Program-made: the position numbers and the translations under genes | Notes under the pieces: generated by a model | Database searches by the model: none | What the model was told of the DNA's origin: nothing | The model's input: the letters and a program-made list of their open reading frames with translations, nothing else | Shown here: positions 25,429 through 29,133 of the stretch, piece by piece | Layout: the number at the start of each line of letters is the position of its first letter | Position numbering within the stretch: the stretch's first letter is position 1 | Assembly: GCA_030599585.1 (NCBI GenBank) | Contig: JAUVNS010000006.1 | Location: forward strand, 64,001-128,000 | DNA: 64,000 nt | DNA from: Promethearchaeota archaeon | GTDB taxonomy: Archaea; Asgardarchaeota; Lokiarchaeia; Sigyniarchaeales; SOKP01 | Direction: 5' to 3'

Positions 25429-26718
25429 TTATCCCTCTAATAAATGAAATACTACAATTGGTATTAAATTTCCTTCAAGGGATACTCGCTCATTATTGGC
25501 ACGATTTACCAAATTATTTGCCATACTATTAATCGACTGTTCAGCAGAATCGAGATCGAACAATTTTCTATATTTTGGATCATCTGGATTTGATAATATT
25601 TTCCTTTGCCATTTCAAACCTAATGCATTTGCCTGTAATTGTAGCCCTGCTAACGCCATTCCAGCCTCAACTTCGGCCCAATACTTAAGATTCATAACTC
25701 TGTGCATTAATCCCGTACAAGGCTTTTTTCGATCAATACATAATAATATGGCATAATTAGAGAAACTAATATCAAACTCCTTTTCAATCTCAGTTCTAAA
25801 AGTCTCAGAGCTAAATTTTTGTATAAAATGGTCGTATGTTATGGCTCCATTAACCTTAATCCATCTATTCAACGCAGAATACCCGACTGGATTATAATGG
25901 TATGATCCATTTGGGACATTAGCAAGATCCCGTACATAAACTAGTGGATATACTGCATATCCCGCACATCCTGATGCATGCACACGACCGTAACCATTTT
26001 TCTCTAAAACATCACGGTTTCCATGAGTCGCATGATCTGTTTCTCCTTGACAAGCCCAGAGTAGTTGAGAGATTTGATGTAAATTTGTATAGTTTGGTGC
26101 TTTTTCATCAACCAGATTAAAAATAACATCGTCTAGTGGAATACCTTTATACTTATTCTCATAGATTGCACGGTTCTTGTAACAAGCTGGAGTGTCAAGT
26201 AAGATAGTACCCACCTCTACTTTTTTTTGAAGAGGTTCTGCAGTATCTTCTACTAATGCTGCCCTATCTCTCTCTCGAACTGCTACCGAATATAAAAAGG
26301 TATAATTTTGGTTCATTAAATTGTTAACGAGTTTATTATATTTTTTAGGTGCTCTTGCTCGTTGTGATACACCAAGCCCAATACTATCCATTTTTAATGA
26401 GAGATACTGCCATGTAATCCCTACCCGAATTAAATCCTCAAATTCAATAGATTCCTTCCAAACTAATTCGGGATATAGCTCCATAGTAAATTTTGTTTTT
26501 TCTTTATCAGTTAATCGATCCAAACCATCACTATTATATTTATATATCCCTCCGGTATAATCGTCCCCCTCAGGTAATACAATAAATAGAGAATTTGAAG
26601 GTGCTGCTTGAAATGTAGAATTACATACTTCCTTAATAACAGATAATTGCAACACACGCCCTTCACCTGAGCAATCTTTACGCCTTGCCAAACTCTCTTG
26701 AAGACTCACTTTAAGCAC
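25429..26718 (-). CDS. SagB/ThcOx-like nitroreductase-fold flavoprotein with two lobes
   Basis: ISQLLWACQG, RVHASG..YAVYPLVYV..V.NG.YHYNP, EAGMA..LQLQANALGL, plus a degenerate N-terminal copy (LQESLARRK, AAPS, GIYKY). Confidence 0.65.
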   Translation of the reverse strand: MLKVSLQESLARRKDCSGEGRVLQLSVIKEVCNSTFQAAPSNSLFIVLPEGDDYTGGIYKYNSDGLDRLTDKEKTKFTMELYPELVWKESIEFEDLIRVGITWQYLSLKMDSIGLGVSQRARAPKKYNKLVNNLMNQNYTFLYSVAVRERDRAALVEDTAEPLQKKVEVGTILLDTPACYKNRAIYENKYKGIPLDDVIFNLVDEKAPNYTNLHQISQLLWACQGETDHATHGNRDVLEKNGYGRVHASGCAGYAVYPLVYVRDLANVPNGSYHYNPVGYSALNRWIKVNGAITYDHFIQKFSSETFRTEIEKEFDISFSNYAILLCIDRKKPCTGLMHRVMNLKYWAEVEAGMALAGLQLQANALGLKWQRKILSNPDDPKYRKLFDLDSAEQSINSMANNLVNRANNERVSLEGNLIPIVVFHLLEG

Positions 26719-26818
26719 TAAACTAATTTTAATAAAGTAATTATAATAAGAAGATTAGTATATTAGTTCAAAACTTTTTTGACTTTTAAAAAAAATAAGA
26801 ATAAAAAATAAGATTAAA

Positions 26819-27907
26819 TTATTTTTGGTTTACCAAGTATTCGTTCATTTCAACGAAAGAGCTTGTTCGGATGATGGCTGCTTTGAGAAATTGAAACCCT
26901 ATGTCGTAGGTTGACCCGTCTCCACCGATGTGGATAACATATGGCACATCACCTTTGTATAATCCCTTGGCTTTTAAGATTTTATAGGTTGTGCTTATCC
27001 CGTCTGCAACAGTCGCACCTGATTCAAATAAATGGTGAATCCAAGGAACTTTCCACGAGCCTACAAAATCTTTGGAAGTAGAGACCTCAGCACAACTGGT
27101 ATTATTTACGTATATAATATTGTTTCCAGCGATAGCAGAGGCTACAGTTGCCATCTGATTCAATACCATTCCTGCTCCACATCCAGGACAAAGTCCATGT
27201 CCGGGGTGCAGATGAGTTTGTGGTTTTAATGTCCTTCTATTAACCTTATAAAAGTCTACAGGTTTTTCAGCTCCAAATTGTTCAATAAGTCCTTTTAATT
27301 TGAGATTTCGTTGTTCTGTAAAATATATTATCTGGTCAATTTCTTTTTCCATAAATCTTGGTTTAAACAAGTGCTTGAATTTACCCATTGACTTAAGGTA
27401 TTCTACGAACTTTTCTTTATCAATATCTAAACCGCGATAGTAAGAAAATGTTGGTATTCCGTCTTTAACTCTTATGGTATAAAGAGGCCAATATCCACAA
27501 TCAGTAGCTAATTTTGAGATACTTGCCGCATCACCAGCATCGTGACGCCATCCTCGCATGCAATCTGAATAGGATTGAATGAAAGCAGACCCATTTGATT
27601 TTAGAGCATCAGCAACTTTTCCCATGAAATCTGCGGGGTAAGCAGGATTAGCCGTAGCTAAAAATAGAGATTTTGTACCAAAGAAAGCAAAAGGAGTTAC
27701 CAGATCTTGCTTAACACCGATTTTTCCGGGTATTTTTTCACCCCCCGGACCAGTCGTTGTTGAAGCGTACGGTGGAGTTGCTCCTGATTCCTGAATACCT
27801 GTATTCATAAAAGCTTCGTTATCATAGTTAAGAAACAATACATTAGTCTTAGAAGTTCTTGCGAGAATGTCTTCAAATACGATCACATTTCTTTCTGGTT
27901 TTGACAT
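26819..27907 (-). CDS. porB: 2-oxoacid (pyruvate):ferredoxin oxidoreductase beta subunit, circularly permuted
   Basis: YDNEAFMNTGIQES.ATP is at the N-terminus; GHGLCPGCG, TSCAEV and GGDGSTYDIG are at the C-terminus. ATG at 27907 directly follows the porA stop. Confidence 0.9.
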   Translation of the reverse strand: MSKPERNVIVFEDILARTSKTNVLFLNYDNEAFMNTGIQESGATPPYASTTTGPGGEKIPGKIGVKQDLVTPFAFFGTKSLFLATANPAYPADFMGKVADALKSNGSAFIQSYSDCMRGWRHDAGDAASISKLATDCGYWPLYTIRVKDGIPTFSYYRGLDIDKEKFVEYLKSMGKFKHLFKPRFMEKEIDQIIYFTEQRNLKLKGLIEQFGAEKPVDFYKVNRRTLKPQTHLHPGHGLCPGCGAGMVLNQMATVASAIAGNNIIYVNNTSCAEVSTSKDFVGSWKVPWIHHLFESGATVADGISTTYKILKAKGLYKGDVPYVIHIGGDGSTYDIGFQFLKAAIIRTSSFVEMNEYLVNQK

Positions 27908-27908
27908 T

Positions 27909-29132
27909 TTACATATCCACCTCATGAATTTTATCTTTGCTTTCTCTAACACCTAGATATGTGTAGAGTTGTCCTTTCATGTCGTTCACTGATTTCATCT
28001 TCCTTTTAGTGACATCGAATTCGTCTCGCGTGACATCTCTACCACCTAATCCGACAATAAAGCTTCTAAATATAGTATTAAGTGGATATAATGCTGTTGC
28101 GATTGAGGTTGAAAATGGTGGTAGAAGATTGTTCAACGAATCAGATTTCTCTAAAATGATTAATTTTTCAATGTTGTGTTCTTGTACAATTTTTTGTAAC
28201 TCTTCATAAGGGAATGGTCTGTAAGCTCTGATTTTGATTAATCCTATATCTTTATTTTTAGTCATCCAACTAATAATGTTTCCACACATCGAACCCATGG
28301 TAATAAATGCAGTTTTTGAGGAATTATCTAAATTATAGGTTTCAATTAAGTTATAATGGCGACCAGTTGCTTTTCCGAAATCATCAAAAGATTGTTTCAT
28401 TACATCTAACACGGATTTTTTGGCGATATCAAGGCCCATTCTTCCCTCCATAAAAAAGCCTGGCGTGACAAGTCCACCCCAGACTCCTGGACGTTCAGGT
28501 GTGATTGTATGACGAGGTTTTTTTGGTGTTAAATTACGTACGATTTCATCGGGAGTTAACCATAATTTCTGAACTGAATGAGAAATTATAAAGCCATCGT
28601 GAACAAACATAGTTGGGAATAATGAATTGTCAGATATCATTACAGATAAAATTGAGGCATCATATGTTTCTTGGACATTTTCTGACACAATGCAGTTCCA
28701 CCCATAATCGGTTATTACATACTCCCAGCTATTCCAGATAGATATATTTGGGGAGTTGAAAGCACGGGCGGAGATCATCATCGTTAATGGGACTCGCCAG
28801 CCTACAGGCATAGGTAAAGCTTCCGACATCAATAAGTAGCCTTGAGACGCAGTTGCTGTAAATGTTCTAGCACCTGCTGCACAAGCAGCAGTTGAATAAC
28901 TCATAGCTGCTAATTCCGATTCGACATTAACGAATGCTGCTTTCAACCTTCCTTGATGAACCACATCGGATAATCCCTCAACAGACTGCGTTTGAGGCGT
29001 AATCGGGAAAGCACATACAACATCGGGATCCGTTTGAGTGACCCCTCCTGCTACGGCGTAATTACCAATCATTGCAGTTTCAATTGGTTCTTTAATCTCC
29101 TTAAAAAATAATTTCATTGGTTCTACTGACAT
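27909..29132 (-). CDS. porA: 2-oxoacid:ferredoxin oxidoreductase alpha subunit
   Basis: AFPITPQT, VESE.AA, GARTFTATASQG, HDGF.ISH, RPFP, GLGGRD. ATG at 29132 follows GGAGGT. Confidence 0.93.
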   Translation of the reverse strand: MSVEPMKLFFKEIKEPIETAMIGNYAVAGGVTQTDPDVVCAFPITPQTQSVEGLSDVVHQGRLKAAFVNVESELAAMSYSTAACAAGARTFTATASQGYLLMSEALPMPVGWRVPLTMMISARAFNSPNISIWNSWEYVITDYGWNCIVSENVQETYDASILSVMISDNSLFPTMFVHDGFIISHSVQKLWLTPDEIVRNLTPKKPRHTITPERPGVWGGLVTPGFFMEGRMGLDIAKKSVLDVMKQSFDDFGKATGRHYNLIETYNLDNSSKTAFITMGSMCGNIISWMTKNKDIGLIKIRAYRPFPYEELQKIVQEHNIEKLIILEKSDSLNNLLPPFSTSIATALYPLNTIFRSFIVGLGGRDVTRDEFDVTKRKMKSVNDMKGQLYTYLGVRESKDKIHEVDM

Positions 29133-29133
29133 T

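What the first reader, a model, noticed from the sequence alone, without database searches (positions are those of the whole stretch)
26819..27907. Circularly permuted PorB with the TPP-binding motif split between the two ends
Known: OFOR beta subunits run GHxxCxGC, then TxCxE, then GDG-X(24-27)-DN, then CxxGW. Seen: this ORF begins with the second half (YDNEAFMNTG at about 27826-27797, CMRGW, YWPLY), passes a linker at about 27300-27205, and then has GHGLCPGCG (about 27203-27176), TSCAEV and GGDGSTYDIG (about 26926-26895) just before the stop. All key ligands are retained, the frame is uninterrupted, and the gene sits in its normal place after porA. The N-terminal ILARTS and C-terminal IIRTS look like two remnants of the helix at the break point. 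Inference: the gene arose by tandem duplication and trimming and is functional.
Basis: partly seen in the sequence, partly recalled or inferred. Interest (0 to 1): 0.85.

Follow-up and report, generated by a model that had tools for sequence, protein, structure and literature searches.

The report
Circularly permuted PorB in Lokiarchaeia
In this Loki-type Asgard archaeon and most of its class, including two cultured species, the cofactor-binding subunit of a pyruvate-type ferredoxin oxidoreductase is encoded back half first, which splits its hallmark thiamine-diphosphate motif between the chain ends, yet the gene is intact, conserved and transcribed.

Summary
ORF 26819-27907(-), 362 aa, matches PorB in swapped order. 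Residues 20-189 match profile positions 118-288, and residues 223-352 match positions 4-122. D29-N30 lie at the N-terminus and G329-D330-G331 at the C-terminus.

It is not a misassembly. The same full-length layout occurs in 130 of 160 other genomes of the class and in 1 of 239 from other Asgard classes, that one a likely bin contaminant. Carriers include closed genomes and the cultured species P. syntrophicum and L. ossiferum. P. syntrophicum DSAG12_00808 is transcribed at RPKM 286.

All four cluster cysteines and the ThDP/Mg motifs are invariant. dN/dS is 0.03-0.08. The fused porGD-porA-porB order is conserved. A PorA/PorB model scores 0.75 against 0.00 for its best control.

Read in canonical order, the protein aligns at 41-43% with canonical PorB of other Asgard classes. 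The permuted clade is monophyletic, on a long stem that PorA shares.

The claimed "ILARTS/IIRTS" duplication remnants are not supported, so the origin is unresolved. I found no paper describing this. NCBI labels these proteins "hypothetical". This scan had already noted the same feature in other genomes.

The parts
29134..30141 (-). Fused porG-porD gene, 335 aa. It carries the gamma domain plus a 2x[4Fe-4S] delta domain and is the first gene of the operon.
   Evidence: Pfam POR PF01558 matches residues 28-195, and Fer4 families match residues 257-327. NCBIfam gives PorG 168 bits and PorD_KorD 51 bits. The fusion is kept in L017 and L018. Other Asgard classes have a separate porG of about 200 aa.
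27909..29162 (-). porA, the alpha subunit with Pyr domain I and domain II. The ORF is 417 aa from a GTG. The likely real start is the ATG at 29132 (M11), which leaves a 1-nt gap after the porGD stop.
   Evidence: Pfam POR_N scores 2.4e-50 and PFOR_II 3.1e-13. NCBIfam PorA_Arch gives 290 bits against a cut-off of 550. Invariant alignment columns begin at M11.
26819..27907 (-). Circularly permuted porB, 362 aa plus stop (P0001).
27842..27907 (-). New N-terminal head, residues 1-22. The model predicts a strand at 6-10 and a short helix at 11-15. It has no significant match to canonical PorB.
   Evidence: AF2 secondary structure; shuffle test; dN/dS of 0.16-0.76 where computable, looser than the core.
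27323..27841 (-). Canonical second half of PorB, residues 23-195. It comprises the strand leading to D29-N30-E31 (27823-27815), MNTGIQ, the fourth cluster Cys C116 (27562-27560) and YWPLY.
   Evidence: Matches 9bt4_C residues 119-284. VIA-align Z is 11 against PFOR domain VI residues 980-1173. N27-A32 and C116 are invariant.
27227..27322 (-). Linker, residues 196-227, joining the old C-terminus to the old N-terminus. The model shows it within a long helix at 187-211 followed by an extended segment.
   Evidence: This is the gap between the two matched stretches. AF2 secondary structure. dN/dS is 0.03-0.19.
26867..27226 (-). Canonical first half of PorB, residues 228-347. It comprises GHGLC240PGC243G (27190-27179), TSC272AE (27094-27092), HHLFE and G329-D330-G331 (26923-26915) with its helix up to R347.
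   Evidence: Matches 9bt4_C residues 5-115. C240, C243, C272, G329-G331 and R347 are invariant. It forms the predicted contact surface with PorA.
26822..26866 (-). New C-terminal tail, residues 348-362. It is modelled as an extension of the GDG helix and is variable across the family.
27917..27922 (-). GAGGTG, a Shine-Dalgarno-like site 9 nt upstream of the porB ATG and inside the end of porA. This suggests translational coupling, which is an inference.
   Evidence: Read from the sequence.
26788..26808 (-). T6 and T8 runs just after the porB stop, a likely archaeal oligo-T terminator that ends the operon. This is an inference.
   Evidence: Read from the sequence.

Best explanation
This is a genuine, functional, circularly permuted beta subunit of a Por-type four-domain 2-oxoacid:ferredoxin oxidoreductase. 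Beta is the ThDP-binding PP domain plus the proximal [4Fe-4S] cluster.

The chain starts in the loop between the GDG helix and the beta-strand that ends in DN. It runs through the canonical second half and crosses a linker of about 32 residues that joins the old termini. It then runs through the canonical first half and ends just after the GDG helix. The two Mg-ThDP ligand elements, D330 of GDG and N30 of DN, are 300 residues apart in sequence. They are expected to meet in the fold, but that is inferred and not shown. Cluster ligands C240, C243, C272 and C116 are kept.

The subunit pairs with PorA, encoded just upstream, through its GDG-helix/HLFE face. Together with the fused gamma-delta subunit it would oxidise pyruvate or a related 2-oxoacid to acyl-CoA plus CO2 and reduce ferredoxin. 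The substrate is inferred.

The rearrangement arose once in the stem of the Lokiarchaeia class, which includes Helarchaeales. It arose from the canonical Asgard PorB, together with the gamma-delta fusion and a burst of change in both alpha and beta. It has been under strong purifying selection since.
For: - **Swapped collinear homology.** Read in canonical order (residues 223-347 followed by 18-205), the protein aligns contiguously over about 300 aa at 41-43% identity with canonical PorB of other Asgard classes, E 1e-72 to 1e-75. It aligns at only 30-32% with the two canonical paralogues of its own genome. The junction fits with a 2-residue insertion.
- **Conservation.** More than 100 clusters at 90% identity give full-length hits of 53-95% identity. 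All ligand motifs are invariant.
- **Distribution.** 130 of 160 class genomes carry it, against 1 of 239 outside the class (my count). It is present in closed genomes and in the cultured species. G143 carries QEE14985.1, which is DSAG12_00808 of P. syntrophicum. G138 carries UYP46588.1 of L. ossiferum. G135 is Ca. Harpocratesius repetitus.
- **Transcription.** DSAG12_00808, 809 and 810 have RPKM 286, 372 and 314 and were used as the PFOR by Imachi et al. (PMC7015854 supplementary tables).
- **Selection.** dN/dS is 0.03-0.08.
- **Synteny.** porA lies directly upstream of permuted porB in 13 of 14 related loci; porGD was also detected in 11 of them.
- **Single origin.** The permuted clade is monophyletic with SH-aLRT 100 and a stem of 1.35. 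It sits inside a clade (support 96) with canonical Asgard PorBs. The alpha stem is 1.72 and the beta stem 1.37, against 0.4-0.66 for other classes.
- **Fold.** The AF2 model has pLDDT 79.6 and pTM 0.85. Each half matches solved OFOR beta or domain VI, with Z 11 and Z 4.6.
- **Complex model, PorA with permuted PorB.** The score is 0.75 and the best of 3 controls is 0.00. That mark was reached by 58 of 80 solved complexes and 2 of 110 mismatched pairs. The counts hold only roughly because my own alignments were used. The runs agree in at least 93% of contacts and the partner pLDDT is at least 83. Like complexes are solved, so the pass may partly reflect memory.
Against: - No activity, protein-level or structural data exist for any member.
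- The tools expose no model coordinates, so the proximity of D330 and N30 was not verified. Sequential aligners cover only one half at a time.
- The ThDP loop (residues 32-62) and residues 274-282 have pLDDT below 50.
- NCBIfam scores are below the equivalog cut-offs for beta (207.6 against 405) and for alpha (290 against 550), so substrate assignment is open.
- This genome has two further canonical Por/Vor-type operons. At least seven class genomes of 95-100% completeness lack the permuted gene. The enzyme is therefore dispensable in some lineages.
Confidence: 0.85

Rival explanations
1. This is an assembly or binning artefact. A tandem repeat or a chimeric join would have produced a falsely rotated gene.
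For: The window comes from a 52-contig genome with 8.9% estimated contamination. One relative has an N-run inside the operon (L031).
Against: The same single 360-369-aa frame occurs in about 130 independently assembled genomes, including single-contig ones (G135, G138, G143, G189), and in cultured strains. Sequence divergence runs from 53% to 95%, with matched ends.
Confidence: 0.01
2. This is a decaying or non-catalytic relic. The permutation broke the ThDP site and the protein survives as a pseudoenzyme or scaffold.
For: The motif that defines the family is split. The stem branch is long. Several complete genomes have lost the gene. Canonical paralogues exist in the same genome.
Against: Every cofactor ligand is invariant over a class-wide radiation. 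dN/dS is 0.03-0.08 in both halves and in the linker. The dedicated alpha and gamma-delta partners co-evolve and stay adjacent. The gene is transcribed in P. syntrophicum. A scaffold would have no need to keep the GDG, DN and four Cys residues.
Confidence: 0.05
3. On origin only: the permutation arose by gene fission at the GDG/DN loop, followed by re-fusion of the two pieces in swapped order, or by another rearrangement. It did not arise by tandem duplication and trimming.
For: No vestige of duplicated sequence is detectable in the head or the tail. No tandem or partly trimmed intermediate appeared among 1281 library hits. The same loop region hosts inteins in other lineages, so it tolerates interruption.
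Against: No split two-gene form was seen either. The searches were mostly limited to near-length proteins, and shorter hits looked like contig-end fragments. Duplication followed by trimming is the commonly accepted route for natural permutants (my own knowledge). A stem of 1.35 substitutions per site would erase short vestiges anyway.
Confidence: 0.35

Closest known systems
PorB of the four-subunit archaeal pyruvate:ferredoxin oxidoreductase (Methanosarcina acetivorans, PDB 9bt4 chain C; NCBIfam NF008819)
   Same: It is the best sequence and fold match (E 3.5e-47). It has the same cofactor motifs, the same four Cys residues and the same gene position after porA.
   Different: The order of the two halves is swapped, with the break between the GDG helix and the DN strand. 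The permuted protein also has a 32-residue linker, a 22-residue head and a 15-residue tail. Its score of 207.6 bits is below the 405-bit cut-off, so NCBI names the proteins 'hypothetical'.
Canonical PorB of other Asgard classes (loci L020-L030 and L034-L043)
   Same: These are the closest evolutionary relatives. They share 41-43% identity with the protein read in canonical order, and the permuted clade nests among them. They have the same G, A, B gene order.
   Different: They have canonical topology of 312-344 aa and a separate porG of about 200 aa rather than a fused porGD. The stems leading to them are much shorter.
Oxalate oxidoreductase of Moorella thermoacetica (PDB 5c4i; beta subunit NF045792, fused 'delta' NF045790)
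   Same: It is the second-best PDB match (E 5.5e-43). It is also a three-polypeptide OFOR in which the gamma-like and ferredoxin-like domains are fused. The window's porGD scores 70 bits against NF045790.
   Different: Its beta topology is canonical and its substrate and clade differ. Scores are far below the equivalog cut-offs.
Domain VI of homodimeric PFOR (Desulfovibrio africanus 1b0p, M. thermoacetica 6cin)
   Same: It has the same PP-domain fold. The second half of the permuted protein aligns with Z 11 to residues 980-1173.
   Different: It is part of a single 1,170-1,230-aa chain with canonical order.
Domain-order rearrangements among ThDP enzyme families (PP and Pyr domains in different orders or on different chains; cited from my own knowledge, not tested here)
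   Same: They show that the ThDP site tolerates different chain connectivity.
   Different: Those rearrangements move whole domains. Here the cut lies inside the PP domain and inside the GDG-X-N signature itself. Five literature searches found no description of such a case.

Membership tests
OFOR beta subunit, PorB type (NCBIfam NF008819; Pfam PF02775 TPP_enzyme_C) | Sequence homology over the whole PP domain | tested here: met
   Both halves match. NF008819 scores 2.4e-61 in two stretches. 9bt4_C gives 72.7 and 91.0 bits. Read in canonical order, the protein aligns contiguously over about 300 aa at 41-43% identity.
OFOR beta subunit, PorB type (NCBIfam NF008819; Pfam PF02775 TPP_enzyme_C) | Collinear match that reaches the curated equivalog cut-off (405 bits) | tested here: not met
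   The score is 207.6 bits, split over two stretches in swapped order. Pfam sees only residues 18-111 at 24 bits.
OFOR beta subunit, PorB type (NCBIfam NF008819; Pfam PF02775 TPP_enzyme_C) | Contiguous ThDP/Mg motif GDG-X(24-27)-N(N) | tested here: not met
   Both elements are present and invariant (G329-D330-G331 and D29-N30), but DN precedes GDG by 300 residues. Canonical relatives have a spacing of 27-30 in 109 of 150 sequences.
OFOR beta subunit, PorB type (NCBIfam NF008819; Pfam PF02775 TPP_enzyme_C) | Four Cys ligands of the proximal [4Fe-4S] cluster (CxxC, TxC, CxxGW) | tested here: met
   C240, C243, C272 and C116 are invariant in 38 family members.
OFOR beta subunit, PorB type (NCBIfam NF008819; Pfam PF02775 TPP_enzyme_C) | Encoded with alpha, gamma and delta partners | tested here: met
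   The fused porGD-porA-porB order is seen in the window. porA lies directly upstream of permuted porB in 13 of 14 related loci.
OFOR beta subunit, PorB type (NCBIfam NF008819; Pfam PF02775 TPP_enzyme_C) | Assembly with the alpha subunit | tested here: met
   This rests on a model only. The score is 0.75 and the best of 3 controls is 0.00. That mark was reached by 58 of 80 solved complexes and 2 of 110 mismatched pairs; the counts are rough because my own alignments were used. Runs agree in at least 93% of contacts and the partner pLDDT is at least 83. Like complexes are solved, so the pass may come from memory.
OFOR beta subunit, PorB type (NCBIfam NF008819; Pfam PF02775 TPP_enzyme_C) | ThDP-dependent 2-oxoacid oxidation with ferredoxin reduction, and substrate identity | not testable with these tools
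   There is indirect evidence only. The best family is PorB for beta and PorA_Arch for alpha, both below cut-off.
Circular permutants formed by tandem duplication and terminal trimming | Vestigial duplicated sequence at the new termini, or surviving tandem intermediates | tested here: not met
   Neither head nor tail scores above shuffles. For the tail, no member exceeds the 95th percentile; for the head, 5% do. No tandem form appeared among the 150 best of 1281 hits. Absence after a stem of 1.35 substitutions per site does not exclude this route.

The most novel reading that the evidence does not exclude
The permutation may be one part of a single adaptive remodelling of the enzyme in the Lokiarchaeia ancestor, not a neutral topological accident. 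The other parts are the gamma-delta fusion and a 3-4-fold longer stem in both alpha and beta. On this reading, the new chain ends beside the Mg-ThDP pocket (the head strand and helix, and the extended GDG helix) change cofactor loading, substrate range or partner docking. The main 2-oxoacid oxidoreductase of the cultured Asgard archaea would then differ functionally from textbook PFOR.
Probability: 0.2. Interest if true: 0.75.

Novelty: new variant of a known kind. Interest (0 to 1): 0.62.

Why it matters
2-Oxoacid:ferredoxin oxidoreductases sit at the centre of the proposed amino-acid-fermenting, syntrophic metabolism of Asgard archaea (PMC7015854). That metabolism underlies current models of eukaryogenesis.

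The enzyme that Imachi et al. assign as PFOR in P. syntrophicum (DSAG12_00808-810) turns out to have a beta subunit with a rotated chain that cuts the signature ThDP motif. I found no paper describing this.

In practical terms, profile-based annotation fails on it. Every NCBI-named member I saw is labelled 'hypothetical protein', so pipelines that rely on those models will score the PFOR of Lokiarchaeia as incomplete.

For enzymology, it is a natural experiment. It shows that the GDG-X-N Mg-ThDP site can be built from the two ends of a chain. The permutation is also a clean synapomorphy for the class. The organisms are cultured and the operon is compact, so the question can be tested directly.

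Tried and rejected
- **Duplication remnants.** I built HMMs of the canonical strand-GDG-helix-loop and loop-strand-DNEAYMNTG segments and searched them with the heads (residues 1-17) and tails (residues 348-end) of 38 members against 40 shuffles each. There was no excess. The window's own PERNVIVF scores 2.7 bits, just above the 99th percentile, but this does not hold across the family.
- **Intein link.** The closest canonical library hit, P0127 from Altiarchaeales, carries an intein in the same motif. The insertion site, V|CYDNE, lies about 9 residues after the permutation break. The host is not Asgard, and the Asgard canonical genes (312-344 aa) have no intein. I dropped this as an explanation.
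- **Whole-fold superposition.** Foldseek and VIA-align are sequential and cover only one half at a time (TMq 0.40; Z 11 and Z 4.6). Model coordinates are not exposed, so the D330-N30 distance could not be measured.
- **A 715-aa 'alpha-beta fusion' in G258.** This is an N-run scaffold gap.
- **The single hit outside the class (G075).** It sits on a 2.8-kb contig carrying a Loki-like operon at 73-86% identity, most likely a bin contaminant.
- **Mapping G135 to P. syntrophicum by genome size.** This was wrong. G135 is Ca. Harpocratesius repetitus.
- **Genome-size literature search.** It returned nothing.
- **Literature searches for the permutation.** Searches found nothing relevant.

Full report
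**Observation**

The minus strand of the window carries three tightly packed genes. They are a fused porG-porD (29134-30141), porA (27909-29162; probable start at the ATG at 29132) and a 362-aa ORF at 26819-27907. The last ORF starts one base after the porA stop, with a GAGGTG 9 nt upstream. Oligo-T runs follow its stop.

NCBIfam PorB (NF008819) matches this ORF in two stretches in swapped order. Residues 20-189 match profile positions 118-288, and residues 223-352 match positions 4-122. The solved PorB of M. acetivorans (9bt4_C, E 3.5e-47) and the oxalate oxidoreductase beta subunit (5c4i_C, E 5.5e-43) show the same pattern.

As a result, D29-N30-E31 and MNTGIQ sit at the N-terminus. C116 (CMRGW) and YWPLY follow. 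A linker of about 32 residues (196-227) joins the old termini. The chain then continues with GHGLC240PGC243G, TSC272AE, HHLFE and G329-D330-G331.

**Not an artefact**

A word-indexed search returned more than 100 protein clusters of 53-95% identity, nearly all 359-368 aa. They come from Lokiarchaeota, Promethearchaeota and Helarchaeota assemblies from several sources.

In 400 genomes of the phylum, a full-length permuted match (E below 1e-100, or an end-of-contig fragment of it) is present in 130 of 160 genomes of the window's class besides the window's own. Outside the class it appears in 1 of 239 (my count from the table). That one hit, G075, is a 2.8-kb contig carrying a Loki-like operon at 73-86% identity, most likely a bin contaminant.

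Carriers include single-contig genomes. By exact look-up, G143's protein is QEE14985.1, which is DSAG12_00808 of Promethearchaeum syntrophicum MK-D1. G138's protein is UYP46588.1 of Ca. Lokiarchaeum ossiferum, and G135's is from Ca. Harpocratesius repetitus.

In a library of 1.84 billion representatives at 50% identity, the only full-length one-stretch hit is a Helarchaeota protein, P0122. A few short one-stretch hits look like fragments. The other hits listed match in two stretches or only one half, as canonical order would give. Among the 150 best hits, 109 have the normal GDG-to-DN spacing of 27-30, and only P0122 has DN before GDG.

**Evidence for function**

- In an alignment of 38 members (mean column identity 71%), N27-A32, N35-G37, C116, G119-R121, C240, C243, C272, E274 and G329-G331 are all invariant.
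- Pairwise dN/dS against seven congeners is 0.03-0.08 for the whole gene. It is low in both halves and in the linker. The 22-residue head is looser.
- porA lies directly upstream of permuted porB in 13 of 14 related loci, and porGD was also detected in 11 of them. The exception, L009 in G231, has a different gene upstream.
- In P. syntrophicum, Supplementary Table 3 of Imachi et al. lists DSAG12_00808, 809 and 810 at RPKM 286, 372 and 314. Supplementary Table 4 uses them as the organism's pyruvate:ferredoxin oxidoreductase, with no remark on topology (PMC7015854).
- AlphaFold2 with the family alignment gives one compact model with pLDDT 79.6 and pTM 0.85. The low-confidence parts are the ThDP loop (residues 32-62) and residues 274-282. 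Each half matches solved OFOR structures: Z 11 for residues 19-209 against PFOR domain VI, and Z 4.2-4.6 for residues 227-362 against OFOR beta subunits.
- A complex model of PorA with the permuted PorB scores 0.75, and the best of 3 controls scores 0.00. That mark was reached by 58 of 80 solved complexes and 2 of 110 mismatched pairs. The counts hold only roughly because my own alignments were used. The runs agree in at least 93% of contacts and the partner pLDDT is at least 83.
- The predicted interface uses PorB residues 262-347 and PorA residues 47-48, 74-98, 114-118 and 214-233. Because alpha/beta complexes of this family are solved, the pass may partly reflect memory. It shows likeness, not binding.

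**Evolution**

Read in canonical order (residues 223-347 followed by 18-205), the protein aligns contiguously with canonical PorB of other Asgard classes at 41-43% identity, E 1e-72 to 1e-75. It aligns at only 30-32% with the two canonical Por/Vor-type beta subunits of its own genome, on contigs C9 and C4. The junction fits the canonical sequence with a two-residue insertion.

In an 82-row tree the permuted clade is monophyletic (SH-aLRT 100). It sits on a stem of 1.35 substitutions per site, inside a clade (support 96) that holds canonical PorBs of other Asgard families. Trees with matching genome sets outside the clade give stems of 1.72 for alpha and 1.37 for beta, against 0.4-0.66 for other class-level stems. 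The other classes also have a separate porG of about 200 aa, whereas here porG and porD are fused.

Three changes therefore map to the same branch: the beta permutation, the gamma-delta fusion, and accelerated change in alpha and beta.

At least seven class genomes of 95-100% completeness lack the gene, among them G267, G270 and G207. Their best matches are no stronger than this genome's own paralogues give. This looks like loss of the operon, not reversion to canonical order.

**Origin**

The N-terminal RTS occurs only in this sequence among the 38 aligned. Across the family, neither head nor tail scores above shuffled controls against the canonical profile. No tandem or half-gene intermediates turned up. 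Duplication plus trimming remains plausible but is not shown. Fission followed by re-fusion cannot be excluded.

**What is known**

Five full-text searches found no description of this or any other permutation within the PP domain of a ThDP enzyme. All NCBI-named members are labelled 'hypothetical protein'. This is explained by the 207.6-bit split score against the 405-bit cut-off. JGI, KEGG and Prokka call it a beta subunit.

This scan had already flagged the same feature in other genomes. I re-tested the leads from those notes independently here: the cultured strains, the transcription and the roughly 130 genomes.

**Verdict**

This is a real, class-wide and very probably functional circularly permuted PorB. 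It is a new topological variant of a well-known enzyme subunit. The substrate and the origin mechanism remain open.

Noticed in passing
P0127, P0136, P0181 and P0154 (library proteins): Canonical PorBs of other lineages carry inteins inside the same ThDP motif. P0127 comes from Altiarchaeales MAGs. Three have a LAGLIDADG-type intein at FTYV|CYDNEAY, about 9 residues after the Loki permutation break. One has an intein directly after GDGG. The GDG-X-N segment therefore recurs as a site of interruption.
   Followed up: partly
window 25429-26718 (-): A 429-aa ORF lies just downstream of the operon. It has a sub-threshold match to the SagB-type dehydrogenase domain (TIGR03605, 44 bits against a cut-off of 78) and no Pfam hit. 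It is kept next to porB in five of the eleven congeneric loci checked (82-91% identity), in which it lies next to porB.
   Followed up: partly
L009 (G231:C94:5740-9825): This congener has the permuted porB at 92% identity but no porA upstream. An unrelated 385-455-aa ORF lies there instead. This could be a local rearrangement or a misjoin.
   Followed up: partly
L031 3752-3961 (G258:C34): About 500 nt downstream of the permuted porB there is a 70-aa stretch 49% identical to residues 264-333 (the first-half type). It may be part of another OFOR beta gene or a fragment.
   Followed up: no
G000:C9:30440-31240 (L002/L004) and G000:C4:51506-52333 (L003/L005): The same genome has two more alpha-beta pairs with canonical beta subunits of 299 and 312 aa. 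They score almost equally for VorB and PorB (378-405 bits, at or just under the cut-off). The permuted enzyme is therefore not the only Por/Vor-type OFOR here.
   Followed up: partly
L017, L018 and L044 (Harpocratesius, Lokiarchaeum, Promethearchaeum orthologues): These orthologues carry an extra acidic insertion of about 10-15 residues after the strand pair at about residue 160. They read GDGSTVNIG where the window has GDGSTYDIG.
   Followed up: no
G267, G270, G179, G200 and G207 (same family, 99-100% complete): No permuted porB was found with this query, and no closer canonical orthologue either. This looks like lineage-specific loss of the operon.
   Followed up: no
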